DNA of 64,000 bases, from the NCBI GenBank assembly GCA_017999675.1, contig JAGNLL010000001.1:196472-260471 (forward strand), given 5' to 3'. The first letter of the stretch is position 1. Each line of letters starts with the position of its first letter. Source of the stretch: Rickettsiales bacterium. Lineage in GTDB: Bacteria > Pseudomonadota > Alphaproteobacteria > Rickettsiales > UBA1997. The position numbers were made by a program, and so were the translations under genes. The notes under the pieces are model-generated. The model ran no database searches and was not told the DNA's origin. It saw nothing but the letters and a program-made list of their open reading frames with translations. This document shows, piece by piece, positions 367 through 39,983 of the stretch.

Positions 367-389
367 CTTTTAGCTAAAAAACTGAATCT

Positions 390-489
390 GCGAATAACCA
401 CCCCAACCCCTCCTTCAAAAGGAGGGGCTTTTCACCGAGCTCGTACTAAAGCCCCTCCTTTTGAAGGAGGGGTTGGGGTGGTTATTCGC
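390..489. repeat. Palindromic repeat family B, copy 1 (100 nt)
   Basis: GCGAATAACCACCCCAACCCCTCCTTCAAAAGGAGGGGC ... GCCCCTCCTTTTGAAGGAGGGGTTGGGGTGGTTATTCGC. The two arms are inverted repeats, and each arm also holds its own small hairpin (CCCCTCC/GGAGGGG). A second copy is at 39855..39983. Confidence 0.9.
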
Positions 490-508
490 AAAAACAAAAC
501 TAAAAGAT

Positions 509-2317
509 TTAGAACTTGTTCTCACAAACATTTTCCAACCAATTTCTCTCTTCCAAACTCAATTTGTTTGAAAGCTTTTCTAAAATTTCAGCGTGGTAGT
601 CTGCAAGCCACTTCCTCTCTGGCCGCGTCAGCATTTTAAAATTAATCAAATTGAGATCTAGCGGTGCGAGGGTCAGCGTTTTAAATTGCAAAAATTTGTC
701 GCCCGCTTTTTCAACCAGCATTAGGTTTTCAATTCTAATTCCGTATTCACCCTCTTTGTAAAACCCGGGTTCGTTCGACAAAATCATTCCCTCAAGCAGC
801 GGCTGGTGCGCGCGTTTGCTAATGCCACACGGGCCTTCGTGCACCGACAAAAAACTGCCCACGCCGTGACCAGTGCCGTGGTCGTAGTCTAGCCCTGCGC
901 GCCACAAATGCTCACGCGCTAAAACGTCAAGCTGCGCGCCCGAAGTGCCGCGCGGAAATTTCGCGCGAGCCAAAGCAATGTGGCCTTTTAAAACGCGGGT
1001 AAAGTTTTCGACCATTTCTGGCGTTGGTTTGCCAATTGCAATTGTGCGCGTGACGTCGGTGGTGCCAAAAAAATCGGCGCTAAAATATTGGCCACCAGAG
1101 TCGATTAGGTAAAGCGAGCCAACCTCCTTAACCGTCGGTTGAGCGGAGTCGAAACCAACGGAAGATTCCTTCTTCAATTTGTTAAAAATCCGCGGCAGGA
1201 ACCTTCCGTTGGTTTCGACTCCGCTCAACCGACGGTTTTGGGGATTGGCGTTGCTGAATTGACGGTTGGTTTTTTCCGTTGCCTTGTAGTGAATTACCGC
1301 GCCGTTGCTGGCGAAGCCCGAGATTGAAGCAAAGCTGGGGTAGAGAAAATTTGGGTTTTCTTGGCGCAACTCCAACAATTTTTCTGCGGCTAAAATTTCG
1401 TCGGTTTCTGGTTTTTGCGAAAGCCAAAACAAAAACTTCGTCAGCGCCAATCCGTCGGCTTCGTGGCTTTTAATTGCGCCAGAAATTTCGGCAGAATTTT
1501 TGCAGGCTTTGGCAAGTTCAATTGGGTCTTTTTTTAAAATTATTTCGGCGTCGTTTTTTTGCAAAAGCTCGAAAAGCCACTGGTTTGTAGTGTTGGGGTC
1601 GATTTGAATTTTCTTTGCGGTACTTAGTCGCGCTGCAAAATCTTTTGGCTCAAAAAAATTAACGCCCGCCAAATCTGGACGCGCGCGGTTTTTTTCAACA
1701 AACAAATCAACCTCACCATTTTTAAACAAAATGGCGTAGGCCAAAAGAAGTGGCGTAAATTCTACGTCGGCAGCGCGAATGTTGAGCAGCCAGCAAGTGT
1801 TTTCTGGTTTGGTAATTACCAAAGCGTCAGCGTCTAAATTTTGCAAAATGTTGCGGCGCTTAGCCTGCGAGTCTTCGCCAACAACAAAAATTTCTGAATT
1901 ACTTGGGTTTGGGCGATTTTGCCAAATGGCGTCAATTGGGTTTTGCTCTAGAAACACGGGTGTTTCGGCCAAAGCGTCAACAAAATTTAAATTAACCAAT
2001 TTTGGATCTAGCGCCAATTTTTTGTCACCCAAATTTTCGTCAAGCCACACCAGAACAGACTTTTGAGCAATGTTGAAAATTTCAAACTCACCCAAATCAA
2101 GCTCATTTTTTGCCTGCAAAATGTAGCGCCCGTCGGTGAAAAAATAAGACTTACCCTGCCCCACAATTACCGAGGCGGCAGATCCAGTGAAACCAGTTAA
2201 ATACTGCAAGCGCTTGTCACTTTCTGGCAAATATTCTGAAAAAAACTCGTCAGAATTTGGCAGAAAAAAGTAGTCAATTTTTTGCTCTTTCAAAAAAAGT
2301 TTTAGCCCTGCTAACAT
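509..2317 (-). CDS. pepP: Xaa-Pro aminopeptidase (M24B, aminopeptidase P family) carrying an in-frame palindromic-element insertion
   Basis: 602-aa ORF with creatinase/prolidase-type N-terminal domains and a pita-bread C-terminal domain. Motifs: LIDSGGQY, DVTRT, HGTGHGVGSFLSVHEGP, SNEPGFY, GIRIEN. Confidence 0.9.
   Translation of the reverse strand: MLAGLKLFLKEQKIDYFFLPNSDEFFSEYLPESDKRLQYLTGFTGSAASVIVGQGKSYFFTDGRYILQAKNELDLGEFEIFNIAQKSVLVWLDENLGDKKLALDPKLVNLNFVDALAETPVFLEQNPIDAIWQNRPNPSNSEIFVVGEDSQAKRRNILQNLDADALVITKPENTCWLLNIRAADVEFTPLLLAYAILFKNGEVDLFVEKNRARPDLAGVNFFEPKDFAARLSTAKKIQIDPNTTNQWLFELLQKNDAEIILKKDPIELAKACKNSAEISGAIKSHEADGLALTKFLFWLSQKPETDEILAAEKLLELRQENPNFLYPSFASISGFASNGAVIHYKATEKTNRQFSNANPQNRRLSGVETNGRFLPRIFNKLKKESSVGFDSAQPTVKEVGSLYLIDSGGQYFSADFFGTTDVTRTIAIGKPTPEMVENFTRVLKGHIALARAKFPRGTSGAQLDVLAREHLWRAGLDYDHGTGHGVGSFLSVHEGPCGISKRAHQPLLEGMILSNEPGFYKEGEYGIRIENLMLVEKAGDKFLQFKTLTLAPLDLNLINFKMLTRPERKWLADYHAEILEKLSNKLSLEERNWLENVCENKF
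1131..1236. repeat. Palindromic repeat family A, copy 1 (106 nt), inside pepP and in frame
   Basis: 34-nt perfect inverted arms ACCGTCGGTTGAGCGGAGTCGAAACCAACGGAAG / CTTCCGTTGGTTTCGACTCCGCTCAACCGACGGT. Other copies are at 6165..6260 and 12999..13097. Confidence 0.9.
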
Positions 2318-2359: not shown

Positions 2360-2620
2360 ATGCCCGAAATCAGCCGCTTCTTTGGAATTGTGATTTACAT
2401 GTATTTCAACGAACACAATCCGCCTCACTTTCACGTTAAGTACAACGACCACCGAGCTCAAATTGACATTGAAACTCTCGGAATAATTGACGGCTCTTTA
2501 CCGCCAAAAGTATTGGCTTTAGTTGTTGAATGGGCAAGTATTCACCAAAATGAACTTCGTAGAAATTGGTTAGACATTCTTGAAAACGGATCTTACGAAA
2601 AAATTAATCCTTTAGAATAG
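2360..2620 (+). CDS. DUF4160 domain protein
   Basis: 86 aa: MPEISRFFGIVIYMYFNEHNPPHFHVKY... The N-terminus (FxGIxIxMYxxEHxPPHFH) is typical of DUF4160. It is paired with a DUF2442 gene 5 nt downstream. Confidence 0.75.
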   Translation: MPEISRFFGIVIYMYFNEHNPPHFHVKYNDHRAQIDIETLGIIDGSLPPKVLALVVEWASIHQNELRRNWLDILENGSYEKINPLE

Positions 2621-2625
2621 CTCAA

Positions 2626-2883
2626 ATGTATTACGTCACCAAAGCTTCTTACGTCAAAGATTTTCAAATCTTTTTGGCTTTTAACGACCAAAAATCTGGC
2701 GTCGTAGATTTAAGCCAAACCATTAAAAATGACAAAAGAGCCATTTTCAAAGAGCTTACCGATTTAAACTTATTCAAAAATTTTAAGGTTGAAATGGACA
2801 CCGTTGTTTGGAGCAACGGACTTGACCTTGCCCCCGAATACCTTCACGACTTATTTCTCAAACAACAAAAAAATGGCCACTAA
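2626..2883 (+). CDS. DUF2442 domain protein
   Basis: 85 aa. It has the V..A.Y..DF.IFL.F.D...G.VDLS and W.NGLDLAPEYL pattern typical of DUF2442 partners of DUF4160. The 3' end overlaps the radA start by 11 nt. Confidence 0.7.
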   Translation: MYYVTKASYVKDFQIFLAFNDQKSGVVDLSQTIKNDKRAIFKELTDLNLFKNFKVEMDTVVWSNGLDLAPEYLHDLFLKQQKNGH

Positions 2884-6164: not shown

Positions 6165-6260
6165 ACCGTTGGTTGAGCGGAGTCGAAACCACCGGAAGGT
6201 TCTTGCTTCAATCGTGAGGCAGGAACCTTCCGTTGGTTTCGACTCCGCTCAACCGACGGT
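6165..6260. repeat. Palindromic repeat family A, copy 2 (96 nt), intergenic
   Basis: ACCGTTGGTTGAGCGGAGTCGAAACCACCGGAAGGTTC ... GAACCTTCCGTTGGTTTCGACTCCGCTCAACCGACGGT, lying between waaA and the UbiH-family gene. Confidence 0.9.
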
Positions 6261-6285
6261 ATTTTTTTTGCGGTATTTTGAAAAA

Positions 6286-7509: not shown

Positions 7510-7645
7510 TAGCGCTGGACGGGGTTTGTAACCCCGTCCGAAACGTTCAGTTCCAAAATCTTCTAAACCACTTGAGACATGAACGGGTGGACGGGGTTAC
7601 AAACCCCGTCCAGCAGAAGGTTTGTAACCCCGTCCACACGTTCAC
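7510..7645. repeat. Palindromic repeat family C, cluster of three hairpin units
   Basis: GGACGGGGTTTGTAACCCCGTCC (7517-7539) plus GAAACGTTCAGTTCC; then ATGAACGGGTGGACGGGGTTACAAACCCCGTCC (to 7611) plus AGCAGAAGG; then TTTGTAACCCCGTCCACACGTTCA (to 7644). Confidence 0.85.
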
Positions 7646-7651
7646 TAAAAG

Positions 7652-9202
7652 CTAAATCATGTTTTTTGGGTTAACCCATTCCTCAAATTGCGCTTCGGTT
7701 AAAAGGCCTGAAGCCAGTGCTGCCGCTTTTAGAGTGGTACCTTCCTTGTGCGCTTTTTTGGCAATTTTTGCAGCTGAGTCGTAGCCAATGTAGGGGTTAA
7801 GTGCGGTGACAAGCATTAGAGATTGGTCGAGAAGTTGCGTAATACGCTCGCGATTTGCCTCAATTCCGACCAAGCATTGGTCAACAAAACTGTTAATTCC
7901 GTCGTTTAACAAATTGAGCGATTCAATGACGTTGCGAATAATCATTGGGCGAAAAACGTTGAGTTCAAAATGTCCGTTCGAGCCGCCAATCGTTACAGCA
8001 ACGTGGTTTCCCATTACTTGGCAAGCAATCATTGTTAGCGCTTCACACTGCGTTGGGTTAACTTTACCCGGCATTATTGAAGAGCCTGGTTCGTTTTCAG
8101 GTAAGCTGATTTCACCCAAACCCGAACGTGGGCCCGAAGCCAAAAAGCGAATGTCGTTGGCAATTTTCATTACTGAAGTTGCGAGTGAATTTAGTGAGCC
8201 AGAAAAATTCACTAGCTCGTCGTTACAAGCCAAAGCGAAGAATTTATTTTTGTTGGTGTAGAAGCTGTCAGCGTGGTCTAATCCCAGTTTAGCAAGGTTT
8301 GAATCTTTTACCTTCCACACACCATCTGCCAAAGTGGTGCGACCTAAATCTAAATTTAAAACTTTTTGGTGTAGTGCTTTTAGACCAGAAACTTCGGTGA
8401 TTTTTTCAGCAAAATTCACTGCAAATTTTGGGTGACAATTAAGCCCAGTTCCAACTGCAGTGCCGCCTTGAGCCAAATGGACCACGTAAGAAAGCGACTG
8501 AGAAATAAACACTGCCGCTGTTTGAATTTGCACTTTGTAGGCTGAAAATTCTTGGCCCAAAGTCACTGGTGTTGCGTCTTGGGTGTGGGTGCGACCGATT
8601 TTAATAATGTCTAAAAACTCGGCTTCCTTTTTACCTAACTCATTGGCAAAGCGCACCAAAGTTGGTAGCAATTTCTCGTAAGTTGTAAGAACAGCTGCCA
8701 CGTGCATTGCGGTTGGGAAAGTGTCGTTTGAACTTTGTCCCAAATTTACGTGGTCGTTTGGATGCACCGGAGATTTTCCACCTTTTTGTCCAGTCACTTT
8801 TTCATTGGCAACTGAAGCAATTACCTCGTTGGTATTCATGTTGGTTTGAGTACCAGAGCCGGTTTGCCAAACTACGAGAGGAAAATGATTTTCGTAAAAC
8901 CAATCGAATTTGGCGAGGATTGTGTCAACCGCGTCAACAATTTTGTCGGCTAAATCGGGAGAGAATTTTTTGAACTCGTCAGATTTTGGATCAGCTGCCA
9001 TTAAGTCTTTGTTGGTAAGAGCCGCCGCTTTTTTGATTAGCAACATTGCGCGCACAACTTCTTTTGGCATTTTGTGGCCAGGGTTGTCGTTGCAGATTGG
9101 AAAGTTTTGTACAGAGCGCTGTGTTTGCGCGGCGTAGTAGGCGTCAAAAGGCACTTGAATTTCGCCGAAAGAGTCAGATTCAATACGAAAGTTTTTTGTC
9201 AT
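7652..9202 (-). CDS. fumC: Class II fumarate hydratase with lineage-specific insertions
   Basis: 516 aa. Motifs: [41 protein letters not shown], and a C-terminus [29 protein letters not shown] close to E. coli FumC. About 40 extra residues sit between ..ITEVSGLK and NKNKFFAL. Confidence 0.93.
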
Positions 9203-9236
9203 TTTTTTAAGGTTGGTTAAAGGTTAAAAAATTTAA

Positions 9237-9339
9237 TAGGTCCCCGAGCAAAGGCCGCAGGCCGTCGTCGAGGGGCCGGAACACGAGATCTGTCTTCGGG
9301 CCCCTCGACGACGGCCTGCGGCCTTTGCTCGGGGACCTA
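9237..9339. repeat. Palindromic repeat family E, copy 1 (103 nt)
   Basis: TAGGTCCCCGAGCAAAGGCCGCAGGCCGTCGTCGAGGGGCC ... GGCCCCTCGACGACGGCCTGCGGCCTTTGCTCGGGGACCTA. The second copy is at 20923..21024. Confidence 0.9.
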
Positions 9340-9350
9340 TTTAGGACTTC

Positions 9351-10193
9351 TTAAGAAACGCAGATTTTTACAAACTCCTCAACATCCAAGCTGGCCTTGC
9401 CCACAAGCAATCCATCAACCCCGTCAATTGCGAGAATTTCTTGCGAATTTTGTGACGTCACCGAGCCACCGTAAAGCATGAAATATTCTTTGGCGCGCCC
9501 TGCAAACTTTTCGGTGAAAACTTTTTTAAACAAATGTGCCATTTCGGCAATCTGCGTGGTTGTTGGTGTCACACCGGTTCCAATCGACCAAATTGGTTCG
9601 TAGGCAATTACCATTTTTTCAAATTGCGCGCTTGTTGAAATTGAATTCATTAGCTGCTTGTAAACAAATTCTAAATGTTTGCCGGAATCGCGAACTTCTT
9701 TACTTTCGCCCACACAAATAATTGGCGTAATTTTTTGCGCCAAGGCGGCGTCAACTTTTTTAGCTACAATTTCGTTAGTTTCTAAAAATTGCTCACGGCG
9801 CTCGCAGTGGCCTAAAATAACGTATCCACAGCTTACCGCGGCCAACATTTCAGCACTGACGCTTCCGGTAAAAGAGCCCGAATTTTCAAAATGACAATCT
9901 TGCGCACCAAGTTTTATTGGACGCTCTTTTAATAAAATTTCGTTGAGCTCTTCTGGGCTAAATTCTGAAAAATCTCGACCATCTTCTTTCATTAAAAATT
10001 CTAACTTTTCAAAGCCGTCACCCATTAGCTCGCTGTCAATGTAGTCGAGCATTAAGAATGACGGGCACAGCACCATTTCAACATCTTTTAGCTGTTCGTA
10101 TTTTTCAGAGTAATTTTGAAAAAACCCGTCAAGCCAAGCGTCCGTTTCGTCAAAGGCGTGGTTCATTTTCCAGTTTGCTGCGATGATTTTCAT
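9351..10193 (-). CDS. tpiA: Triosephosphate isomerase (with a ~30-aa insertion)
   Basis: 280 aa. Motifs: ANWKMN, ILGHCERR, AYEPIWSIGTG, YGGSV. Confidence 0.9.
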   Translation of the reverse strand: MKIIAANWKMNHAFDETDAWLDGFFQNYSEKYEQLKDVEMVLCPSFLMLDYIDSELMGDGFEKLEFLMKEDGRDFSEFSPEELNEILLKERPIKLGAQDCHFENSGSFTGSVSAEMLAAVSCGYVILGHCERREQFLETNEIVAKKVDAALAQKITPIICVGESKEVRDSGKHLEFVYKQLMNSISTSAQFEKMVIAYEPIWSIGTGVTPTTTQIAEMAHLFKKVFTEKFAGRAKEYFMLYGGSVTSQNSQEILAIDGVDGLLVGKASLDVEEFVKICVS

Positions 10194-12031: not shown

Positions 12032-15000
12032 TTAGCGTAACTGAGCAATCCACATTCTCGACACCTTCTCCGCCAAAGAATTTTGCTCACAGCGATTGTG
12101 TAAATGCGCAAAATCAAAGCGATCCATGTTTTGATCTTGGTCGCCGCAAGAATAAAAATATTCCTCCTCACCTTTTTCATTTTGTCTTTTTTGCAAACAT
12201 TGCGAACACACGCCTTTCAACATGCATTGCATTGGAGCGTTGAGGCTGGCGGTTGCAACTGGGGCTTTAGAAATTGATTCGACTAAATTTTCAGCGCGCA
12301 ATTTTGCCACCGCGTGCATCATTTGGTCGTTGCCAATTGTAAAAATGCGGTCGATTTTTTCAGGGTTTTTTGTGAAGTGATTTTTTAAAGCCTCAATCAC
12401 TGAGCCTTCAAAACAGTAGTTTGAGGCTTTCTCAAATTTCAAATTCGGCAATTCTTCTTCAATTGCACAAACCAAAATTTCACAAGAATTTTCCATTCTT
12501 TGTTGCCTAACAATTGACGAATTTTTGCGATATCCCGCAAAAAAAATCACGCGGCAACCGTTTTGTTTGTAAGCCTCAGCCAGTGCAGTTAAAGGCTGAT
12601 TACCGCGCCCTCCCCCAATTAAAACCACAGTTTCATTTTGTGGAATTTCATTTGGCTTGCCACTTGGGCCCATGAAAATGCAGGGTTCGCCCGTTTTAAA
12701 ATTTTGAATCAAACTTGTTGAGCCACCAGTTTCAAGAACAATACCACTAATAATTCCGCGCTCGCAATCAATTGACAAAGCCGTGACGGGAACACCTTCC
12801 ATTGCTAACAATTGGTCGCCAACTTTTGGCGCCAATGCGTGATAATTTTGCAGTCGAAAAATTTGACCAACGTGAGTTTGTTTTGCCAAAAGTGGGGCCT
12901 TGATGAAAACCTCAACCACGTGGTCTGAAAGCCTGTCGATTTTTTCGATTTTGACTAAAAATTCAGAATTTATTTTTTTCAAAAACTCAAAAACCAAAAC
13001 CGTCGGTTGAGCGGAGTCGAAACCACCGGAAGGTTCCTGCTGTGAAAGTTCTGAATCAGGAACCTTCCGTTGGTTTCGACTCCGCTCAACCGACGGTTTT
13101 GGGGGTGACGGTTCTGTTTCTGACGGTTTTTGTGAGGCAAGTAATCTGCTAATCTGTGAATAACCCATCTTCGCACTGGCCATTGCCTTCACCACATTAC
13201 CTTCAAAACTTGGATGCAAATCGCCAAAAAAACTCACCACTTTTTGCGAGTTTTCGTCAATTTTTGTAATCACACTTCCCTGCTCAAGTGCTTTAAAATA
13301 TTTGCCCTCAAGCTTGAAATCTAGCCCATCTTCAAGCACTGGCGCAATGTTTGGAGTGGTGCCTGCCGCAACTAAAAGTGATTTGCAGGCAAAGTTTTTT
13401 CCTTCAGCGCATTTCAAATTTTTAATGTAGCCAAATTGGTCGGTTTCAACTTCGAGTGGCGTAATATTTTCAACAAATTCTACACCTTCTGCGAAAGCTT
13501 TGCTCAGCTCTTGGTGGTTTAATCTGTAAGCTGGAGAGTCTTGAATTTTTTTGCGGTAGAGAATTTTTACGCCACCCCATTTTTTTAATAACTCGCTAGA
13601 GTCACCATTACGTAGCTCTGCGGCGTGATTCAAAAATTCTTCAGCAATAATTTTTTCTTCTGCATTTAACGCCGCCCAAATTTTTTCTTTACCAATTGCC
13701 GCAAATTTTTTTTCAAATTTTCTGATTTGGGTAATGTAATAAGCCTGCGCTTCGCAAGCGGTGTCTGTTGCCGTAAGCCCTCCGCCAATCACCGCAATTG
13801 GCATTCTGATTTGCAAATTGGTGAATAATTCTTCTTTAAAAGCTCCAGTTAATTGTAGCGACATTAAAAAATCTGAAGCCGAACGCACACCTTTAGCAAA
13901 GTTATTTTTCAGATTAATAATATTAGGCCGACCCGCGCCAATACAAAGCGCAACATGGTCGAATCCGTAATTTTCAAAAGCAATTTTGTCGGTAATTGAC
14001 GAGCCAAAACGAATGCCACCAAACATTCTAAAATTTTCTCTGCGCTCTAAAAGTAGGCGAATCACTTTCAAAAAATTCTTGTCGAAACGCACCGTAATGC
14101 CATATTCCGCAACGCCGCCAAAACCATGAACCAAGCGTCTTGAGAGTGGCTCGTAAATTTCGTCTAAAAATTTAATTGGTTTAAATTTTTGGCGATTTCC
14201 AAATTCGTCAATGCCAGAAATTTGCGAATTTAGCGGCTCAATTTTAAGCCCATCAATTGCCACAATCGTGTGACCGTCATTTAACAAATGATGCGCTAGA
14301 GTGTAGCCGGCAGGTCCCAAACCAGCGATTAGAATTTTTTTGCCGGAATTTTCTTTAGGCAAATTTCTCTCCAAATTCAGTGGATTCCAACGCGTTAAAA
14401 GTGAGTAAATTTCAAAGCCAAAAGGCAGCGCCAAAACATCTTTTAGGGTGCGCGTTTCAATTTGTGGAATATCCACCGCGTCTTGTTTTTGGTAAATGCA
14501 CGACTTCATGCAATCGTTGCAAATGCGGTGTCCAGTGCCTGCAATCATTGGGTTGTCAATCACTGCCATTGCAAAAGCGGCGAGCGAAAAACCTTCTGAT
14601 TTTAGCAAATTCATTTCAGAAATTTTTTCATCCAATGGGCAGCCGTGAAGCTCAACTTTAAGTGGATCGATTTTGAATTTTTGAGTTTCTTTGTCGCGAA
14701 TTCCGCTGCGGCAAGAATCTTTTTCCTGCTTGTGACAAAAAATACAGTAATGGGTTTCAGCCAATACCCTGTTGAGCTCGAAGCCTTTGTCGGTTAAGTT
14801 AAAGCCGTCGCGTTTTGATTTTTCAGTGCATGGAGAAATCAAATTTTGGTGGTCGATTTTTTGCGGCAAAATAAAAAGCGCGCCGTTTTTGTGCAAAGCC
14901 CGACCCTTGTCAGAGTAAAGCGCCCAAGTTGTGTAGTTGGTTAAAATTTCTAAATTTTCTTGAGTAGAAATTTTTTCAGCTAGTTGTTTTTCTAGATCGT

Positions 15001-15412
15001 CAACGTCTTCGAAAGTTATTTTTAGATCTTTAAGAACCTTGATCCCATCAGTGCCTGCGACCACATCGCTAAATTTTTTCGAGACATCGCGCTGCACAAA
15101 TTCACGACGAATTTGGTAAATTTTTTGCAGCTCGTCGTGACGTTTTTTTAAGTTAGAATTTTCTTGTTCGATGTTGAAAAGCTCAGCAAGAAATTCTTCA
15201 AGAACCCTTGCTACGTCTATTAGAATTTGCGATTTCTGTACCGCAGTTTTGGTATTAGAATTTTTTAAATCACCAAACTGCGCCGCAATTTCTGGAGATT
15301 TTTCTTCTAAATATTTTTCAAATTTTTGATCTAATTTCACCAAACCTTCACGCGCGTAAAGATCTTCAAAAGTTAGTTCAAACCTAGAGTTAAGAGGATT
15401 TTGTGAGGGCAT
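12032..15412 (-). CDS. Large multidomain Fe-S flavoprotein oxidoreductase (Cys-rich N-terminal region + GltD-like NAD(P)H/FAD domains + PyrK/FNR-like domain with C-terminal 2Fe-2S-type cysteines)
   Basis: 1126 aa. Cys clusters CIFCHKQEKDSC, GCPLDEKISE and CNDCMKSC. Two Rossmann motifs (ILIAGLGPAGYTLA; VIGGGLTATDTA). C-terminal FNR-like barrel and NAD domain (VVLIGGGRGNQP), ending in CMLKGVCSQC...YFYSCGDQD. A family A palindromic element lies in frame at the domain junction. Confidence 0.6.
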   Translation of the reverse strand: MPSQNPLNSRFELTFEDLYAREGLVKLDQKFEKYLEEKSPEIAAQFGDLKNSNTKTAVQKSQILIDVARVLEEFLAELFNIEQENSNLKKRHDELQKIYQIRREFVQRDVSKKFSDVVAGTDGIKVLKDLKITFEDVDDLEKQLAEKISTQENLEILTNYTTWALYSDKGRALHKNGALFILPQKIDHQNLISPCTEKSKRDGFNLTDKGFELNRVLAETHYCIFCHKQEKDSCRSGIRDKETQKFKIDPLKVELHGCPLDEKISEMNLLKSEGFSLAAFAMAVIDNPMIAGTGHRICNDCMKSCIYQKQDAVDIPQIETRTLKDVLALPFGFEIYSLLTRWNPLNLERNLPKENSGKKILIAGLGPAGYTLAHHLLNDGHTIVAIDGLKIEPLNSQISGIDEFGNRQKFKPIKFLDEIYEPLSRRLVHGFGGVAEYGITVRFDKNFLKVIRLLLERRENFRMFGGIRFGSSITDKIAFENYGFDHVALCIGAGRPNIINLKNNFAKGVRSASDFLMSLQLTGAFKEELFTNLQIRMPIAVIGGGLTATDTACEAQAYYITQIRKFEKKFAAIGKEKIWAALNAEEKIIAEEFLNHAAELRNGDSSELLKKWGGVKILYRKKIQDSPAYRLNHQELSKAFAEGVEFVENITPLEVETDQFGYIKNLKCAEGKNFACKSLLVAAGTTPNIAPVLEDGLDFKLEGKYFKALEQGSVITKIDENSQKVVSFFGDLHPSFEGNVVKAMASAKMGYSQISRLLASQKPSETEPSPPKPSVERSRNQRKVPDSELSQQEPSGGFDSAQPTVLVFEFLKKINSEFLVKIEKIDRLSDHVVEVFIKAPLLAKQTHVGQIFRLQNYHALAPKVGDQLLAMEGVPVTALSIDCERGIISGIVLETGGSTSLIQNFKTGEPCIFMGPSGKPNEIPQNETVVLIGGGRGNQPLTALAEAYKQNGCRVIFFAGYRKNSSIVRQQRMENSCEILVCAIEEELPNLKFEKASNYCFEGSVIEALKNHFTKNPEKIDRIFTIGNDQMMHAVAKLRAENLVESISKAPVATASLNAPMQCMLKGVCSQCLQKRQNEKGEEEYFYSCGDQDQNMDRFDFAHLHNRCEQNSLAEKVSRMWIAQLR
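12999..13097. repeat. Palindromic repeat family A, copy 3 (99 nt), inside the oxidoreductase gene and in frame
   Basis: ACCGTCGGTTGAGCGGAGTCGAAACCACCGGAAGGTTCCTGC ... CAGGAACCTTCCGTTGGTTTCGACTCCGCTCAACCGACGGT. Confidence 0.9.
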
Positions 15413-18704: not shown

Positions 18705-19185
18705 CGAGAAAGTGCCCGAGTTTCTGTTGACAGGCACTCGGGCGGGCCCCGATAAAATCACTTATACTAAGCAGCTAAAGCCACTGGAGCAAATTCGAAG
18801 TTATCATTAGCAAAGTTGTCGTTTGCATTTACTTTTTTGAACGGATGTCGCTTGGCTTTCGCCTCACAACCGGCAGTTTCTCAACCGGGTAAAATCAAAT
18901 CCTTTATCGCATGTCGAAAGCTGTGTCACCCCCAGAAGAAAAATCACTTTTGTTCGGGTAGAAAATTCAAGTATTTTGAGTGATAGCTTTGCTAAATGAA
19001 AAGTTCGAGGAGGGCCGCGTATTCCAATACGCAACCGACGAGAATCTTTTCATTTAGTGAAGCTAGCGCTCAAAAGACGCCGAATTTGGTGGAGGTGCTG
19101 GGTACTGCCCCCAGGTCCATGTACGTTTATTGCGAAGAGAGTTTATCACCATAGTCTTTTAGTCTTGCGACCGAAAGCGTGGCGT
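18705..19185 (-). ncRNA. ssrA: Circularly permuted (two-piece) tmRNA gene: acceptor piece (about 19185 to 19087), intervening hairpin (19086 to 18934), coding piece (18933 to about 18705)
   Basis: Reading the minus strand: ...GGACCUGGGGGCAGUACCCAGCACCUCCACCA ends at 19087 (T-arm-like hairpin, acceptor 3' strand CACCUCC, discriminator A, CCA). The segment from 18933 starts GGGGGUGACACAGCUUUCGACAUGCG, giving the complementary acceptor 5' strand GGGGGUG with a G3:U70 wobble plus the UUUCGACA motif. It is followed by the tag frame GCA AAC GAC AAC UUU GCU AAU GAU AAC UUC GAA UUU GCU CCA GUG GCU UUA GCU GCU UAG (ANDNFANDNFEFAPVALAA, 18826..18767) and a terminal hairpin GCCCGAGU/ACUCGGGC. The 5' and 3' boundaries are approximate. 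Confidence 0.8.
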
Positions 19186-19213
19186 AACCTAAGAACTAAA
19201 AAAATTTTGACAA
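19186..19213 (-). promoter_or_regulatory. Candidate sigma-70-like promoter for ssrA
   Basis: On the minus strand: TTGTCA (19213-19208), a 16-nt spacer, then TAGGTT (19191-19186). The -10 is weak and the call rests on position only. Confidence 0.25.
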
Positions 19214-19309
19214 GTAATGGTTAGGAAAAATCTTTAGAAATTAAAATTTCACTTCCTAGAGTGCGCCGAAATTCTTCGTTTAAAAATCCCCAAAAATCTC
19301 AAGTCAAAA

Positions 19310-20914: not shown

Positions 20915-20922
20915 CCATTTTA

Positions 20923-21024
20923 TAGGTCCCCGAGCAAAGGACGAAGTCCGTCGTCGAGGGGCCCGAAGCGAGATCTGTCTTCGGGCCCCTCGACGACGGA
21001 CTTCGTCCTTTGCTCGGGGACCTA
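20923..21024. repeat. Palindromic repeat family E, copy 2 (102 nt)
   Basis: TAGGTCCCCGAGCAAAGGACGAAGTCCGTCGTCGAGGGGCCCGAAG CGAGATCTGT CTTCGGGCCCCTCGACGACGGACTTCGTCCTTTGCTCGGGGACCTA. This is a nearly perfect 46-bp stem. Confidence 0.9.
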
Positions 21025-21040
21025 TTTATATTTATTTTTA

Positions 21041-24862: not shown

Positions 24863-25846
24863 ATGGATTACAAAAAACTCACCGAAAAAAAGAAAATATT
24901 AGATAAGCACAGGCCTTTTGACGCCGCGCTGGTAAAGAACCTAGAAGAATGGTTTAGAATCGAATTAACCTACACCAGCAACGCCATCGAAGGAAACACT
25001 TTGTCGCGCGCCGAAACCGCTTTGGTTGTTGAAAAAGGTTTAACTATCGGCGGTAAATCAATAACTGAACATCTTGAAGCAACTAATACCGCTCACGCTC
25101 TCGATTTTGTTAAAACACAAATCAAGCGCAAACCAAGTGAGATTAAAGAAAAAGACATCCTAAAAATTCACGAAATTATTTTAAGCAGAATCAATAAAGA
25201 AGATGCCGGCCTTTACCGTCGTGTTCCTGTGCGCATTTCTGGCTCTGGCGTTGTTTTGCCAAATCCAAAAAAAGTCCAAGACCTAATGGATGAATTTTTC
25301 TTGTGGCTAAAAAAAGAAACCAAACTTCACGCCGTAGAATTAGCCGCCGAAGCCCATTATCGTTTAGTCACAATTCACCCTTTCATTGATGGCAATGGCC
25401 GAACCGCGCGCCTGTTGATGAATATGATTTTAATGATGAAAGGTTTTCCACCAGCAATCATCCGCAAAAATGACCGCTTGGCCTATATTAAATCTTTAGA
25501 AAAACCGCAGTTGGTTAATGGCGAAGGCGATTCAAAAAATGATTATTTCAAGCTGATTGCGGCAGCCGTTGATCGTTCGCTAAACATTTATCTCAAAGCA
25601 ATTGAAGGCGAAACCGAAGCGCCGGAGAATGAAAAACTTCTAAAAATTGGCGAGCTTGCCAAAGCAACAAATCAAACCGTTCCAACTATTAGACATTGGA
25701 CAAAAGAGGGTTTGTTGAGAATTGCAGAAGTCACAGAATCTGGCTATCAAATGTATGATGCTGAGATGATTGAGCGGGTAAAAAAAATTCAGGAGATGAA
25801 GGAAAAACGAATGACGCTTGGAGAGATTAAAAAGGATTTGAAATAA
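24863..25846 (+). CDS. Fic (Fido) family protein, class II (internal inhibitory helix), fused to a C-terminal MerR-type HTH
   Basis: 327 aa. Inhibitory motif TSNAIEGN [(S/T)xxxE(G/N)], active-site motif HPFIDGNGRTARLLMN, and a C-terminus IGELAKATNQTVPTIRHWTKEGLL...SGYQMYD like the N-terminal HTH of MerR regulators. Confidence 0.8.
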   Translation: MDYKKLTEKKKILDKHRPFDAALVKNLEEWFRIELTYTSNAIEGNTLSRAETALVVEKGLTIGGKSITEHLEATNTAHALDFVKTQIKRKPSEIKEKDILKIHEIILSRINKEDAGLYRRVPVRISGSGVVLPNPKKVQDLMDEFFLWLKKETKLHAVELAAEAHYRLVTIHPFIDGNGRTARLLMNMILMMKGFPPAIIRKNDRLAYIKSLEKPQLVNGEGDSKNDYFKLIAAAVDRSLNIYLKAIEGETEAPENEKLLKIGELAKATNQTVPTIRHWTKEGLLRIAEVTESGYQMYDAEMIERVKKIQEMKEKRMTLGEIKKDLK

Positions 25847-28251: not shown

Positions 28252-28280
28252 GTTTTTTACACCGAGTCTTCGTTAGCACT

Positions 28281-28360
28281 GGATTGCCGCGCTGCGCTCG
28301 CAATGACGGCGTGGGAAGGTCACTCCTAGCACCGTCATTGCGAGCGCAGCGTGGCAATCC
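28281..28360. repeat. Repeat family D, inverted pair forming a ~29-bp hairpin
   Basis: GGATTGCCGCGCTGCGCTCGCAATGACGG (28281-28309), a 22-nt loop, then CCGTCATTGCGAGCGCAGCGTGGCAATCC (28332-28360). There is one mismatch. Confidence 0.85.
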
Positions 28361-28388
28361 ATTAACACAATCACACTTTACATTAATC

Positions 28389-28787
28389 ATGCACCTCATC
28401 CTCATCGCAATCGGCGGCGCGCTTGGCTCAGTGACTCGCTACCTGTCATCTGAATTAATTTTACAAATCGTAAAATTTAACAATTCCTCACTCGCAAAAT
28501 TTCCTTGGCCAACTTTTTGCGTAAACGTTCTCGGCTCACTCCTCGCCGGCGCTGCCTACTTCTTCGTCATCAAAAATTTCGACAATTTTGACCCGCGTTT
28601 GAAAAACTTTTTATTTGTCGGATTCCTCGGCGGCTTCACCACCTTCTCCGCTTTCTCGCTTGACTTCTTTCGCCTAGCAACCGCCGGCCAATATTCACAA
28701 GCCTTGCTCTATGCTTTAGCTTCCGTCACAATTTCAATTCTGGCGCTGTTTTTTGGCTTTTATTTATCAAAATTAATTTTCTCTTAA
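28389..28787 (+). CDS. crcB: Fluoride ion channel CrcB/Fluc
   Basis: 132 aa from ATG 28389 (MHLILIAIGGALGSVTRY...), with four TM segments and GFLGGFTTFSAF. The track start 28284 reads through repeat family D. Confidence 0.88.
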   Translation: MHLILIAIGGALGSVTRYLSSELILQIVKFNNSSLAKFPWPTFCVNVLGSLLAGAAYFFVIKNFDNFDPRLKNFLFVGFLGGFTTFSAFSLDFFRLATAGQYSQALLYALASVTISILALFFGFYLSKLIFS

Positions 28788-29893: not shown

Positions 29894-29921
29894 CAGTTGT
29901 TTCACCACATTTGTTTTGAAT

Positions 29922-30197
29922 ATGAAAAACCCTATTTTTAGCTGGAGTGAGGAGAAAAATAAAATTCTCAAAGAGTCTCGAAACATTTCTTTTGAAAAAA
30001 TCATTACCGCGATTCAGGAAGGTGATTTGTTGGAAATTATTGCAAATCCCAGCAAAAATCACGAAGAGCAAGATTGTTTGGTGGTTGGCATTAAAGACTA
30101 CGCTTACATAGTTCCCTACGTTGAAAATGAAGAAGGGATTTTTTTAAAAACAATTTATCCGAGCAGAAAATATACGAGATTTTTACTTAAAAAATGA
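29922..30197 (+). CDS. BrnT-like (DUF497-related) toxin candidate
   Basis: 91 aa from ATG 29922. FSWSEEKNKILKESRNISFEKIITAI ... IVPYVENEEGIFLKTIYPSRKYT fits the F.WDE.KN......RGISFE / IFLKT.IPSRK pattern of small toxins that pair with CopG-type antitoxins. Confidence 0.5.
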   Translation: MKNPIFSWSEEKNKILKESRNISFEKIITAIQEGDLLEIIANPSKNHEEQDCLVVGIKDYAYIVPYVENEEGIFLKTIYPSRKYTRFLLKK

Positions 30198-30209
30198 CGA
30201 GCCCGATTT

Positions 30210-30500
30210 ATGAAAAACGATAAAAAAATTTACAGCGCAGCCGAGTTAAAATTGTTCAAAAAGATCGAGAGTGGCAAAGGCAAAGCCTTACCAAAAAAAG
30301 ATTTTACCAAAGAAAAAAACAAACTTCAAAAGATGGCCGCCAACACTTTGAAAAGGAAATCGATTAATATTCGAGTAATTGAAAGCGACATCGAAAAGAT
30401 CAAGGCCATAGCGCTAGATGAAGGCATACCTTACCAAACTTTTATTACTTCGATATTGCACAAGGTGGCTACGGGAAAGTTGGCGGGTTATCAAATTTAA
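30210..30500 (+). CDS. BrnA/CopG-family (ribbon-helix-helix) antitoxin candidate
   Basis: 96 aa. The C-terminus KSINIRVIESDIEKIKAIALDEGIPYQTFITSILHKVATGKL matches the I.IR....l..lK..A...GIPYQTLI.SILHKY signature. Confidence 0.6.
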   Translation: MKNDKKIYSAAELKLFKKIESGKGKALPKKDFTKEKNKLQKMAANTLKRKSINIRVIESDIEKIKAIALDEGIPYQTFITSILHKVATGKLAGYQI

Positions 30501-33348: not shown

Positions 33349-33768
33349 ATGATCACTTGCACTAGACGCATCGAATTTGACGCAGCTCACCGAATTATAA
33401 ATCACGAAAGCAAATGCAAAATGCTGCACGGTCACCGCTACGCTTTGGAGGCTAGTTTTGCGACAAAAAAGTTAGATAAATTAGGCCGAGTGATTGATTT
33501 TGGTGTAGTGCGCGAAGTGCTTGGGGCTTGGATTGACAGCAATTTAGATCACAACACGATTCTGTGTATTAAAGACAAAAAACTGGGCGAGAGCATTGCT
33601 TCGCAAACCGGCCAAAAAATTTACTACATCAAAGAAAACCCAACTGCCGAAAATATCGCACAGCATATTTTTGCTGAAATTTGCCCGAAACTTTTTGCCA
33701 AGAAAAACGTGAAATGCGTTGGCATTAAGCTTTACGAAACCCCTAATTGCTACACCAATGTCGAATAG
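33349..33768 (+). CDS. queD: 6-carboxy-5,6,7,8-tetrahydropterin synthase
   Basis: 139 aa. FDAAHRI......C..LHGH.Y and DHN motifs of the PTPS/QueD family. Confidence 0.85.
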   Translation: MITCTRRIEFDAAHRIINHESKCKMLHGHRYALEASFATKKLDKLGRVIDFGVVREVLGAWIDSNLDHNTILCIKDKKLGESIASQTGQKIYYIKENPTAENIAQHIFAEICPKLFAKKNVKCVGIKLYETPNCYTNVE

Positions 33769-34192
33769 TTTTTCTGCTCAATATCGCATCTATTACGAAG
33801 ACACTGACGCTGGTGGCATCGTTTATTACGCTAATTATTTAAAATTTTTCGAACGCGCCCGCACCGATTTTTTGCGCAGCTTAAATATTGTGCAGTCTGA
33901 ATTGATGGCGAAGGAAAATTTGGTTTTTGTGGTGAGAAAATGCGAGGTTGATTATCTTACTCCCGCAAGGATGGATGACCTTGTTGAGGTTTCGGTGGCA
34001 GTGACAAAAATTAATCCGGCGTCGATTACGATGTTTCAAGAGATGAAAAAATCTGATAAAGTTTTGTCGCGTTTAACTGTGCAAATTGCTTGTGTTTGCG
34101 CAAATGGAATTAGACCAGAGAGAATTCCAAATGAACTTGTACAACTGCTCACGATGGACCCCGTCGTTCGACGGGGTGACACCTCACTTTAG
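33758..34192 (+). CDS. ybgC: YbgC-type acyl-CoA thioesterase (4HBT hotdog)
   Basis: From ATG 33758: MSNSFSAQYRIYYEDTDAGGIVYYANYLKFFERAR. The last ~12 codons (MDPVVRRGDTSL) and the stop are supplied by repeat family F. Confidence 0.85.
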   Translation: MSNSFSAQYRIYYEDTDAGGIVYYANYLKFFERARTDFLRSLNIVQSELMAKENLVFVVRKCEVDYLTPARMDDLVEVSVAVTKINPASITMFQEMKKSDKVLSRLTVQIACVCANGIRPERIPNELVQLLTMDPVVRRGDTSL

Positions 34193-34220
34193 TTTGTCAC
34201 CCCGTCGAACGACGGGGTCC
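34156..34220. repeat. Palindromic repeat family F (65 nt, double hairpin)
   Basis: GGACCCCGTCGTTCGACGGGGTGAC, a 15-nt spacer, then GTCACCCCGTCGAACGACGGGGTCC. Each arm is itself a hairpin (CCCCGTCG/CGACGGGG). Confidence 0.85.
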
Positions 34221-34255
34221 AGACTGACTCGTCACATAAACAAAAATTACAAAAA

Positions 34256-39803: not shown

Positions 39804-39854
39804 AGAGCCTGAGATGGGCGGGGAGATGTTTGTGAAAAACTAAAATGGTGCTTT

Positions 39855-39983
39855 GCGAATAACCACCCCAAACCCTCCTTCAAAAGGAGGGGCTTACCAC
39901 CGAGATTGCTTTTAGCTATTCACTTTCAAGAAAATCGTAAGAAAGCCCCTCCTTTTGAAGGAGGGGTTGGGGTGGTTATTCGC
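39855..39983. repeat. Palindromic repeat family B, copy 2 (129 nt)
   Basis: The arms match 390..489 (one A/C difference in the left arm), with a longer, unrelated loop. It lies between convergent genes. Confidence 0.9.

What the first reader, a model, noticed from the sequence alone, without database searches (positions are those of the whole stretch)
1131..1236. G+C-rich palindromic element (family A) inserted in frame inside the aminopeptidase P gene
Seen: a 106-nt element with 34-nt perfect inverted arms (ACCGTCGGTTGAGCGGAGTCGAAACCAACGGAAG / CTTCCGTTGGTTTCGACTCCGCTCAACCGACGGT). The 602-codon ORF reads straight through it. This adds roughly NPQNRRLSGVETNGRFLPRIFNKLKKESSVGFDSAQPTVKEVG between the conserved blocks GAVIHYKA and LYLIDSGGQY. 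Those blocks are only a short loop apart in characterised M24B enzymes such as E. coli PepP (ILHYTEN..LVLIDAGCEY). Established: Rickettsia palindromic elements (RPEs) are selfish palindromes that persist inside ORFs without breaking the frame. Inference: this is an RPE-like element from a sequence family I do not recognise, and the host enzyme probably tolerates it as a surface loop.
Basis: partly seen in the sequence, partly recalled or inferred. Interest (0 to 1): 0.7.

Follow-up and report, generated by a model that had tools for sequence, protein, structure and literature searches.

The report
Selfish palindrome inside aminopeptidase P gene
A roughly 130-base hairpin-forming repeat has inserted in frame into a working aminopeptidase P gene of an uncultured alphaproteobacterium, adding a floppy 43-residue surface loop, as the palindromic elements of Rickettsia do, but it belongs to a different repeat family in a different lineage.

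Summary
Window 1131-1236 is a 106-nt palindrome with perfect 34-nt arms, and the 602-codon aminopeptidase P ORF (509-2317, minus strand) reads through it.

- **Insert size:** the gene carries 43 extra codons. The closest orthologues (about 80% core identity, same gene neighbourhood) have only the six-residue loop KKISGN at that point.
- **Gene still intact:** all five metal ligands are conserved. An AlphaFold model is confident everywhere except residues 359-395.
- **A dispersed family:** there are three copies in the window. A second one sits in frame in a 1126-aa oxidoreductase. I found 33 copies in freshwater metagenomes and two Rickettsiales-labelled MAGs, most of them intergenic.
- **Anatomy:** two inverted stem-loop units of about 35 nt share a conserved loop (TTGAGCGGAGTCGAA), with compensatory stem changes and no target-site duplication.
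- **No match to known families:** nothing in Rfam, NCBIfam, plasmids or phages. No transposase was found in the sequence held.
- **Hot spot:** the same loop carries palindromic inserts from at least five families in about 30 of 120 orthologues.

Verdict: this is a real RPE-like (also REPIN-like) selfish palindrome, a new family outside Rickettsia. It is a new member of a known kind. How it moves remains inferred.

The parts
1131..1236 (.). Core palindrome of family A copy 1: perfect 34-nt arms (1131-1164 and 1203-1236) around a 38-nt centre.
   Evidence: DNA fold z = -14.
1118..1246 (-). Net insertion in the aminopeptidase P gene under delimitation 1: codons N358-G400, 129 nt, equal to the extended imperfect palindrome.
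   Evidence: Empty site in P0003 and P0004: ACC AAC AAA AAA ATT GCC GGC AAT TCG. PDB 3ctz has no counterpart for query 356-399. pLDDT is below 50 at residues 359-395.
1130..1264 (-). Alternative delimitation 2: codons R352-V396, made of a 30-nt 5' tail plus the 106-nt palindrome. K397-G400 (KEVG) would then be the remnant of the ancestral KKISGN.
   Evidence: Copy 3 shares the tail. P0011 and P0014 have the element directly after KTN, followed by DKVQG or GEGEG.
1132..1161 (.). Left stem-loop unit: stem CCGTCGG (1132-1138) with CCAACGG (1155-1161), loop TTGAGCGGAGTCGAAA carrying a GANTC site (GAGTC).
   Evidence: Covariation of the unit stems across 26 copies.
1206..1235 (.). Right stem-loop unit, the inverted copy of the left unit: stem CCGTTGG (1206-1212) with CCGACGG (1229-1235).
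1237..1267 (-). Tail on the 5' (N-terminal) side of the element, with AACCGTCA-like motifs at a 15-nt period.
   Evidence: Shared with copy 3 and partly with copy 2.
509..2317 (-). Host gene: three-domain Xaa-Pro aminopeptidase (M24B), 602 aa, with metal ligands D406, D421, H484, E516 and E530 intact.
   Evidence: Pfam, PDB, invariant columns, Foldseek TM-score 0.85 to 4s2r.
6165..6260 (.). Family A copy 2, intergenic between the kdtA-like and FAD-monooxygenase genes.
12994..13128 (-). Family A copy 3 with its tail, in frame in the interdomain linker of the 1126-aa GltD-like/flavin-reductase fusion ORF 12032..15412. It adds about 44 codons.

Best explanation
The element is one copy of a dispersed, non-autonomous palindromic repeat, here called family A. 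It is built from two inverted stem-loop units of about 35 nt with a conserved loop, around a variable centre. In this genome it also has a 30-nt tail.

Shown: the copy entered the aminopeptidase P gene after this lineage split from its closest sampled relatives. It landed in the turn of a beta-hairpin just upstream of the first metal-binding Asp. Its length is a multiple of three, and two of the three reading frames of the first arm and all three of the second arm are stop-free. The gene therefore stayed open and now encodes 43 extra residues as a disordered surface loop.

Inferred: the insert is a neutral or slightly harmful passenger, not a functional module. Selection only filters which insertions survive, namely in-frame, stop-free ones in permissive loops and linkers. 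That filter explains why the same loop is hit again and again in related species.

Inferred, with lower confidence (about 0.3): the element moves through a single-stranded hairpin intermediate handled by an enzyme encoded elsewhere in the genome, in the manner of REP/REPIN elements and their RAYT transposase or IS200/IS605-type transposition. The grounds are the conserved loop, the covarying stems and the absence of target-site duplications.
For: - **Real repeat family:** 3 copies in the window and 33 in 23 sequence sources. Most copies are intergenic; three sit in long ORFs: aminopeptidase P, the oxidoreductase fusion and a CobT-like protein.
- **Insert absent from the nearest orthologues:** P0002, P0003 and P0004 have 75-80% core identity and the same radA-DUF2442-DUF4160-pepP neighbourhood.
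- **Separate insertion:** in a neighbour-joining tree the window protein nests among insert-free sequences, apart from the other family A carriers.
- **Recent insertion:** arms are perfect here but decayed in P0007. The right arms of all three window copies are identical.
- **Host gene intact:** metal ligands are invariant. Model pLDDT averages 86.9 with only residues 359-395 below 50, and the fold matches solved aminopeptidase P structures.
- **Passenger behaviour:** within the clade that shares one insertion, the core is 95-97% identical but the insert only 53-81%.
- **Hairpin maintained:** 16 pairs change on both sides, reached by 0 of 500 shuffles. The unit stems covary as well. Hybrid and tandem copies keep the unit stems while breaking the long hairpin.
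- **No target-site duplication** at any boundary offset.
- **Same loop hit by other families:** inserts there in other orthologues are also DNA palindromes.
Against: - No mobilising enzyme was found. No window ORF has a transposase domain, and there is no RayT homologue in the 283 kb held.
- I have no filled/empty pair from closely related strains, so the insertion junction is ambiguous by about 15 nt and two delimitations fit.
- Expression of the insert at RNA or protein level is untested. A perfect stem of about 50 bp in the mRNA could be a target for RNase III (my inference).
- The perfect arms could reflect correction between copies rather than youth.
- The neighbour-joining tree has no support values.
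Confidence: 0.8

Rival explanations
1. The family A inserts in aminopeptidase P of the window and of P0007, P0011 and P0014 (and the A-like one in P0006) descend from one ancient insertion. That insertion was later excised precisely in the many intervening lineages.
For: All these inserts sit in the same loop, in the same orientation. The span between KTN and (S/T)LY is 49 residues in both P0001 and P0007. Single-strand transposons of the IS200/IS605 type can excise precisely (established knowledge).
Against: The window protein groups with insert-free P0002, P0003 and P0004, which have an intact KKI(S/A)GN. Inside the P0007/P0014 clade the insert diverges about ten times faster than the core. 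At that rate an insertion as old as the 70% core identity between clades should be unrecognisable, yet the window copy has perfect arms. Other families hit the same loop independently.
Confidence: 0.1
2. The insert has been co-opted. Either the mRNA hairpin regulates translation or stability of the aminopeptidase P message, or the extra loop has a role in the protein, for example in oligomerisation or substrate gating.
For: The element lies five residues upstream of metal ligand D406. The hairpin is extremely stable. The loop is occupied in about a quarter of the orthologues.
Against: Occupants of the loop come from unrelated families and vary in length from 12 to 153 aa. The insert peptide evolves far faster than the host. 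The model gives no structure for it. Identical elements sit in intergenic DNA and in an unrelated linker.
Confidence: 0.07
3. The palindrome inside the gene is an assembly or binning artefact, such as a chimeric join at a repeat.
For: The window comes from a metagenome-type assembly, and repeats are classic sites of misassembly.
Against: The insert is in frame, stop-free and flanked on both sides by colinear gene sequence. The identical 602-aa product is on record from 2 contigs. Independent assemblies of other species show the same kind of insert at the same loop.
Confidence: 0.02
4. The segment is an ordinary lineage-specific loop of this aminopeptidase P clade that merely happens to be palindromic.
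For: Bacterial XPNPEP1-type enzymes vary in length, from 542 to 743 aa.
Against: The same sequence occurs twice more in the window and in unrelated genes and spacers of other genomes. The closest orthologues lack it.
Confidence: 0.01

Closest known systems
Rickettsia palindromic elements (RPE-1 to RPE-10; Ogata et al. 2000 and 2002, as summarised in PMC10969869)
   Same: Dispersed palindromic repeats of 100-150 bp, found both between genes and in frame inside unrelated housekeeping genes. They add a peptide of about 40-50 residues without breaking the ORF, the position is compatible with the protein fold, and no transposase or target duplication is known. An RNA gene is also hit here (tmRNA).
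   Different: The sequence family is different: no NCBIfam hit at E <= 10, though without a positive control. The host is not a recognisable Rickettsia: 41% G+C, with its best relatives being MAGs labelled Rickettsiales, Pelagibacterales or Proteobacteria. Here the element resolves into two stem-loop units with a conserved loop.
REP / REPIN elements mobilised by RAYT (a Y1 HUH transposase)
   Same: The unit is a short imperfect hairpin. Units pair up in inverted orientation to form a long hairpin of about 100 nt. Clusters of alternating units occur (L007), as in BIMEs. There is no target duplication, and most copies lie just downstream of stop codons.
   Different: No RAYT was found in the sequence held. 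There is no GTAG-type 5' motif. Copies occur inside ORFs, which REPs by definition avoid. Here it is the loop that is conserved, rather than the stem foot.
Bacterial MITEs that fuse in frame with host ORFs (intragenic ERIC, QMITE1 of Coxiella, Correia elements; PMC10969869, PMC5896051)
   Same: Small non-autonomous repeats with inverted ends that can extend or interrupt ORFs in frame.
   Different: Classical MITEs have terminal inverted repeats, target-site duplications and a recognisable parent insertion sequence. None of these was found here.
Coding palindromes in mitochondrial genes of Nematomorpha (PMC6649704)
   Same: Long perfect inverted repeats embedded in protein-coding sequence, with both arms translated.
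   Different: Those are in an organelle and are gene-internal, not a dispersed family shared with intergenic DNA.

Membership tests
Rickettsia palindromic elements (RPE) | Dispersed repeat of about 100-150 bp able to form a long hairpin. | tested here: met
   106-nt core (129-135 nt with flanks). 3 copies in the window, 33 in all. Fold z of -14 to -16.
Rickettsia palindromic elements (RPE) | In-frame insertion in protein-coding genes that orthologues lack, with the ORF kept open. | tested here: met
   Aminopeptidase P +43 codons, oxidoreductase +44 codons, and a CobT-like ORF in L005.
Rickettsia palindromic elements (RPE) | The insert lies at a position compatible with the host fold (surface loop). 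| tested here: met
   pLDDT is below 50 only at residues 359-395, between confident strands, and the core matches 4s2r/3ctz. Solvent exposure itself was not computed.
Rickettsia palindromic elements (RPE) | Sequence homology to a named RPE family (the RPE domain models NCBI uses for annotation). | tested here: inconclusive
   No NCBIfam family at E <= 10 for ten element-derived peptides. I could not confirm with a positive control that the RPE models are in this release, and the RPE consensus paper (PMC186582) is not held.
Rickettsia palindromic elements (RPE) | Host is a member of the genus Rickettsia. | tested here: not met
   41% G+C. No Rickettsia species is named among the best 120 homologues of either host protein. 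One carrier MAG is titled 'Rickettsia typhi', but its loci have 36-38% G+C.
REP/REPIN-RAYT system | The unit is a short imperfect palindrome, and two units in inverted orientation form the mobile doublet. | tested here: met
   The unit stems covary. Hybrid doublets and the L007 array keep the unit stems.
REP/REPIN-RAYT system | A cognate RAYT gene in the same genome, usually flanked by its REPs. | tested here: inconclusive
   No phmmer hit to E. coli RayT in 1151 ORFs from 283 kb and no Y1_Tnp domain in the window ORFs. The rest of the genome is not available.
REP/REPIN-RAYT system | Extragenic location. | tested here: not met
   At least 3 copies lie inside long ORFs, and related copies lie in P0007, P0011 and P0014.
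Classical MITE | Target-site duplication flanking the element. | tested here: not met
   At most 5 of 26 copies have matching flanks, and only for 2-mers, at any boundary offset.
Classical MITE | A parent insertion sequence with the same terminal repeats. | tested here: inconclusive
   No transposase in the window. No match in plasmids or phages. The whole genome was not searched.
Any Rfam RNA family | A score at or above the family's gathering threshold. | tested here: not met
   Only sub-threshold, generic miRNA-hairpin matches.

The most novel reading that the evidence does not exclude
The repeated colonisation of one six-residue loop of aminopeptidase P is not only survivorship. Roughly 15 separate clades are affected, by at least five unrelated palindrome families, and family A alone appears at three places in the tree. 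The novel reading is that these stem-loop elements share an insertion mechanism that targets a DNA feature of that site. Candidates are the A-tract followed by a small palindrome in the empty site (AAAAAAATTGCCGGCAATT), or microhomology between the host AAAACC and the element end AAAACCGTC. That would make this uncultured alphaproteobacterial radiation a natural system in which the long-unknown mobility mechanism of RPE-type elements could be worked out.
Probability: 0.2. Interest if true: 0.75.

Novelty: new member of a known kind. Interest (0 to 1): 0.55.

Why it matters
Coding palindromes were described as a peculiarity of the genus Rickettsia, and how they move has never been settled. This window shows the same behaviour, with different repeat families, in a broad set of uncultured alphaproteobacteria. 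These are mostly freshwater metagenome bins, with about 41% G+C in this window.

In that set, two housekeeping proteins alone show dozens of independent in-frame insertions. They are concentrated in one beta-hairpin turn and one interdomain linker. This amounts to a natural map of where proteins tolerate insertions of 40 to 150 residues. It also provides many filled and empty sites from which target preference and the mobilising enzyme could be inferred.

For annotation, it warns that length variation and apparent 'novel domains' in these MAG proteins are often repeat-derived.

Tried and rejected
- **Database-wide census by peptide.** A two-sequence profile against 1.84 billion representatives returned 5 hits: small ORFs, ORFs laid over repeat arrays, and two low-complexity false positives. 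Clustering at 50% identity hides insert-bearing members, so these numbers say nothing about abundance.
- **Source of the window.** The exact protein is not on record for a contig look-up, and DNA for the closest orthologue P0002 was unavailable.
- **RPE consensus sequences.** The Genome Research 2002 paper is not held, and the R. felis plasmid accession I tried is absent from the plasmid collection. I therefore had no positive control for the NCBIfam RPE models.
- **Rfam.** Only generic hairpin matches far below threshold.
- **Plasmids and phages.** No similarity.
- **Transposase search.** None in about 50 window ORFs, and no RayT homologue in the loci held.
- **Other long proteins in the window.** The extra segments in fumarase and triosephosphate isomerase are not palindromic, so I do not count them as elements.
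- **CcrM/GANTC idea.** Each unit loop carries GAGTC, but the other palindrome families in the window lack GANTC, and I could not read the Caulobacter CIR paper. I kept this only as a note.
- **Reading-frame bias.** Four of about five independent in-ORF copies use the GFDSAQP frame of the second arm. That is too few to be significant.
Full report
**1.

Window 1131-1164 reads ACCGTCGGTTGAGCGGAGTCGAAACCAACGGAAG. Window 1203-1236 is its exact reverse complement, with 38 nt between the arms. The repeat finder extends the complementarity to 1118-1249, giving 53-nt arms at 91%.

None is expected in 100 dinucleotide-preserving shuffles. As single-stranded DNA the 132-nt stretch folds at -58.4 kcal/mol, against -18.4 +/- 2.9 for shuffles (z = -14).

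ORF 509..2317 on the minus strand has 602 codons and reads straight through, giving ...GAVIHYKATEKTNRQFSNANPQNRRLSGVETNGRFLPRIFNKLKKESSVGFDSAQPTVKEVGSLYLIDSGGQY.... The element has 52% G+C, against 45% for the gene and 41% for the window, so 'G+C-rich' is only relative.

**2. The host gene and the size of the insert**

Pfam finds Creatinase_N, Creatinase_N_2, Peptidase_M24 and Peptidase_M24_C. The best solved relatives are human XPNPEP1 (3ctz), C. elegans APP-1 and Plasmodium APP.

- In the alignment to 3ctz, query residue 355 pairs with chain residue 407 and query 400 with chain 409. About 44 residues have no counterpart.
- Among the 120 best homologues, 89 have the short loop KTNKKISGN-SLYLIDSGGQY.
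- The closest homologues lack the insert: P0002, P0003 and P0004, at 80, 78 and 75% identity in the 80-sequence alignment. They lie in the same radA-DUF2442-DUF4160-pepP neighbourhood.
- At DNA level the empty site is ACC AAC AAA AAA ATT GCC GGC AAT TCG in P0003. The window has 43 more codons there.

Two delimitations fit the data:

- **N358-G400 (1118-1246).** This coincides with the extended imperfect palindrome.
- **R352-V396 (1130-1264).** This is a 30-nt tail plus the 106-nt palindrome, with KEVG as the remnant of KKISGN. It is favoured by the tail shared with copy 3, and by P0011 and P0014, where the element follows KTN directly.

**3. The gene still looks functional**

D406, D421, H484, E516 and E530 are invariant in 80 orthologues, including the window protein. 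By the 3ctz alignment and my knowledge of XPNPEP1, they correspond to human D415, D426, H489, E523 and E537.

An AlphaFold2 model built on that alignment has mean pLDDT 86.9 and pTM 0.87. The only stretch below 50 is residues 359-395. It has no secondary structure and lies between the GAVIHY region and strand 401-407. The model superposes on solved aminopeptidase P structures, with TM-score 0.85 to 4s2r and 0.79 to 3ctz. I could not compute solvent exposure, so 'surface loop' rests on the position of this hairpin turn and on the low confidence.

**4. It is a dispersed family**

The window holds three copies:

- 1118-1249, inside the aminopeptidase P gene;
- 6165-6260, intergenic;
- 12994-13102, inside ORF 12032..15412.

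The right arms of all three are identical over 35 nt. Copy 3 is in frame in a 1126-aa fusion protein with a Pyr_redox_2 domain; source annotations of its homologues call it a glutamate-synthase-beta-like / flavin reductase fusion. It sits in the interdomain linker. Close orthologues have about 9 variable residues there, while the window has 53, a net gain of about 44 codons.

A two-arm pattern found 5 loci in two MAGs of the species-representative genome set, titled 'Rickettsiales bacterium NGIII-112018-84' and 'Rickettsia typhi MsE-30apr19-74'. The loci from the second MAG have 36-38% G+C, which is high for R. typhi as I recall it, so I suspect the title is wrong. The same pattern found 17 metagenome loci.

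A relaxed search of everything held gives 33 copies. Most are intergenic. Only three sit in long ORFs: the two in the window and a CobT-like VWA protein in L005. A fourth, in L010, lies just upstream of the likely lpxD start. The window's own genome was not among the hits.

**5. Anatomy**

Aligned copies share the 15-16-nt core TTGAGCGGAGTCGAA(A) in each arm. This is partly by ascertainment, because the search pattern required it. The heptamers on either side of the core vary.

- **Long hairpin.** The outer and inner heptamers of the two arms change together: CCGTCGG/CCGACGG, CCGCCGG/CCGGCGG, CCGGTGG/CCACCGG and CCGCTGG/CCAGCGG. For the long hairpin, 91% of cells pair and 16 pairs change on both sides. 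None of 500 shuffles reaches this, and versions with the partner slid by 1-3 columns pair in only 27-46% of cells.
- **Unit hairpin.** Within one arm, the outer heptamer also pairs with the inner one, with T-A, C-G and G-C at the central position. Each arm is therefore itself a stem-loop, with a 7-9-bp stem and a conserved loop.
- **Which is the basic unit.** Hybrid copies (L013_1181, L016_1292, L017_1349) combine arms of different subtype. They keep the unit stems while the long hairpin loses pairs. In L007, four doublets stand in tandem at a 100-nt period. Their unit stems (GGTCATT/AATGACC and GTTCGTT/AACGAAC) are unlike those elsewhere, but the loop is the same. Conversely, L003, L004 and L012 keep the long hairpin but not the unit stems. 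Both pairings matter, and the basic building block is a stem-loop unit used in inverted pairs.
- **Centre and ends.** The centre is hypervariable in sequence and length. No target-site duplication exists at any boundary offset from 0 to 11 nt: at most 5 of 26 copies agree, and only for 2-mers.
- **Tail.** In this genome, copies 1 and 3 share a 30-nt tail on the side that is 5' in the host gene. It carries AACCGTCA-like motifs every 15 nt. Copy 2 has one such repeat. I cannot explain the tail. Sub-terminal protein-binding repeats or a footprint of the insertion process are both possible.

**6. Reading frames**

The first arm is open in two of three frames (NRRLSGVETNGR and PSVERSRNQRK; the third has TGA). 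The second arm is open in all three (VGFDSAQPTV, LVSTPLNRR, WFRLRSTDG). Because the element is a palindrome, the same holds on the other strand. An insertion therefore has a high chance of leaving an ORF open if its length is a multiple of three.

**7. History**

In a neighbour-joining tree of the 567 core columns, the window protein sits with insert-free P0002, P0003 and P0004. The other family A carriers (P0007, P0011, P0014) form their own tight clade beside insert-free P0008, P0009 and P0034. P0006, with an A-like insert, pairs with insert-free P0010. The tree has no support values.

Within the P0007/P0011/P0014 clade, the core is 95-97% identical but the 36-residue insert only 53-81%. The DNA arms of P0007 have decayed. 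The insert thus drifts roughly ten times faster than its host, as expected for an unconstrained passenger.

An insertion as old as the split between that clade and the window lineage (70% core identity) could hardly retain perfect 34-nt arms. I therefore read the window copy as a separate and recent insertion. Correction between copies is the alternative explanation for the perfect arms.

**8. A hot spot**

The same loop, within about six residues, carries inserts of 12 to 153 residues in about 31 of 120 orthologues. Five families can be told apart by peptide motif:

| Family | Peptide motif | Counterpart in the window |
|---|---|---|
| A | RRLSGVETNGR...GFDSAQP | This finding |
| H | GPRHEDGVT...VTPHLLRGP | Palindrome at 34155-34221 |
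| D | WTGFVTPS...WTGLQTPS | Same peptides as the palindrome at 7514-7644 |
| B-like | EKGG...PPSFSKR | Compare 389-490 |
| V | HPALVAGP, with tandem expansions | None seen |

On the tree these inserts fall in roughly 15 separate clades. Where I could fetch DNA, the inserts are palindromes:

- P0007, fold z = -9.9;
- P0112, z = -5.6, with a hairpin unit at each end;
- P0020, z = -4.8;
- P0048, an 18-bp stem;
- the empty sites, by contrast, give z of -0.4 and -1.7.

A second, weaker hot spot lies at core column 120, in 11 orthologues. In the oxidoreductase, the interdomain linker is hit in 21 of 120 orthologues.

Survivorship in permissive sites explains this most simply. A DNA-level target preference cannot be excluded. 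The empty site has an A-run followed by a small palindrome, AAAAAAATTGCCGGCAATT in P0003. The host AAAACC also resembles the element end AAAACCGTC.

**9. How it most likely works**

Shown: the element is a repeat family with maintained hairpins. It has inserted in frame into at least three different genes and is absent from the nearest orthologues. The host gene is intact, and the insert is fast-evolving and unstructured.

Inferred: it is selfish DNA, and its persistence in genes is decided by a filter. That filter passes insertions whose length is a multiple of three, whose frame is stop-free and whose site is tolerant. A conserved single-stranded loop on covarying stems, inverted doublets, BIME-like clusters and the lack of target duplications together point to recognition of a folded single strand by an enzyme acting in trans. 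REP/REPIN elements with RAYT, and IS200/IS605 elements, work this way.

That enzyme was not found. No window ORF from 82 to 53221 has a transposase domain. E. coli RayT, recovered, has no homologue among 1151 ORFs from the 283 kb held. This is a weak negative, because most of each genome is unseen.

**10. Comparison with what is known**

In behaviour this is an RPE: a palindromic repeat of 100-150 bp that inserts in frame into unrelated housekeeping genes at fold-compatible positions (PMC10969869, summarising Ogata et al. 2000 and 2002). I do not file it as a member of the named RPE families:

- peptides from this and five other window palindromes hit no NCBIfam model at E <= 10 (no positive control);
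- the host is not a recognisable Rickettsia;
- there is no match above the gathering threshold in Rfam, and no match in PLSDB plasmids or GenBank phages.

In architecture it resembles a REPIN. It fails the 'extragenic' criterion, lacks a GTAG motif, and the RAYT test is inconclusive. It is not a classical MITE, because it has no target duplication and no parent insertion sequence was seen. Full-text searches found RPE papers, Coxiella QMITEs and nematomorph mitochondrial coding palindromes. Nothing describes such elements in non-Rickettsia MAG lineages.

**11. Verdict**

The element is a new sequence family of a known kind. The interesting additions are the second in-frame copy, the two-unit build with a conserved loop, and above all the repeated colonisation of the same loop by several families across a wide uncultured clade.

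Interest is 0.55: noteworthy for people who work on mobile elements and protein evolution, but not a new category. The most novel reading not excluded is site-targeted insertion (probability about 0.2).

Noticed in passing
window 389-490 and 39852-39986 (B); 9235-9341 and 20922-21025 (C); 7514-7644 (D); 28280-28361; 34155-34221 (H): At least five further families of long palindromes occur in the window, about one strong palindrome per 6 kb. Each lies within about 50 nt downstream of a stop codon. In all of them each arm is itself a small hairpin. Peptides of D, H and B recur as in-frame inserts in aminopeptidase P and oxidoreductase orthologues of other MAGs.
   Followed up: partly
window 18711-19227 (minus strand), inverted repeat at 18971-19078: The two-piece alphaproteobacterial tmRNA gene carries an insertion of about 125 nt just after the acceptor-piece CCA, at model positions 141/142, which I take to be the intervening segment of a two-piece tmRNA. 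The insert is an imperfect palindrome with 53-nt arms, 74% complementary.
   Followed up: partly
aminopeptidase P orthologues P0001-P0120, loop equivalent to window residues 352-400; also core column 120: The loop is an insertion hot spot: about 31 of 120 orthologues carry 12-153 extra residues from at least five palindrome families, in roughly 15 clades. Some are nested or tandemly expanded (P0019 124 aa, P0067 153 aa). A second hot spot, at core column 120, has 11 carriers.
   Followed up: partly
window 12032-15412 orthologues (P0121-P0240), linker near residue 769: The interdomain linker of the 1126-aa oxidoreductase fusion is another hot spot, with 21 of 120 orthologues carrying inserts. 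Close relatives carry an H-type palindrome (IVTPSNDGV) where the window has family A.
   Followed up: partly
window 1237-1267, 13101-13128, 6261-6280: The window's family A copies share a tail on one side, with AACCGTCA/TGACGGTT-like motifs spaced 15 nt apart. It is absent from copies in other genomes. Its origin is unexplained.
   Followed up: partly
L007 474-876 (Ga0209573_1000219): A tandem array of four divergent family A doublets at a 100-nt period. The unit stems differ from all other copies but the loop is the same. The arrangement resembles BIME clusters of REPs.
   Followed up: partly
window 1147-1151, 1216-1220 and the equivalent positions in copies 2 and 3: Each unit loop contains a GANTC site (GAGTC/GACTC), the CcrM methylation motif of Alphaproteobacteria. 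GANTC is under-represented in the window overall, at 143 observed against 232 expected from base composition. No methyltransferase gene was seen in the window.
   Followed up: no
window 7652-9202 (residues 275-313) and 9351-10193 (residues 53-92): Fumarase C has about 39 residues, and triosephosphate isomerase about 35-40, that have no counterpart in solved homologues. Their DNA does not fold better than shuffles. They may be old, decayed insertions or ordinary lineage-specific loops.
   Followed up: partly
window 33719-34192 and 28284-28787: The thioesterase ORF runs 15 residues past its Pfam domain into palindrome H. The CrcB ORF as listed starts inside the palindrome at 28280-28361, and the true start is probably the Met of MHLILIAIGG.
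   Followed up: no
L001 and L005 (CAMCME01, titled 'MAG: Rickettsia typhi isolate MsE-30apr19-74'): The loci from this MAG have 36-38% G+C and carry family A elements. I recall the R. typhi genome as about 29% G+C, so the organism name in the record is probably wrong.
   Followed up: no
window 2360-2883, 24863-25846, 29916-30500: A DUF4160/DUF2442 gene pair lies between pepP and radA and is conserved in some relatives. The window also has a Fic-MerR fusion protein and a BrnT/CopG-like toxin-antitoxin pair.
   Followed up: no
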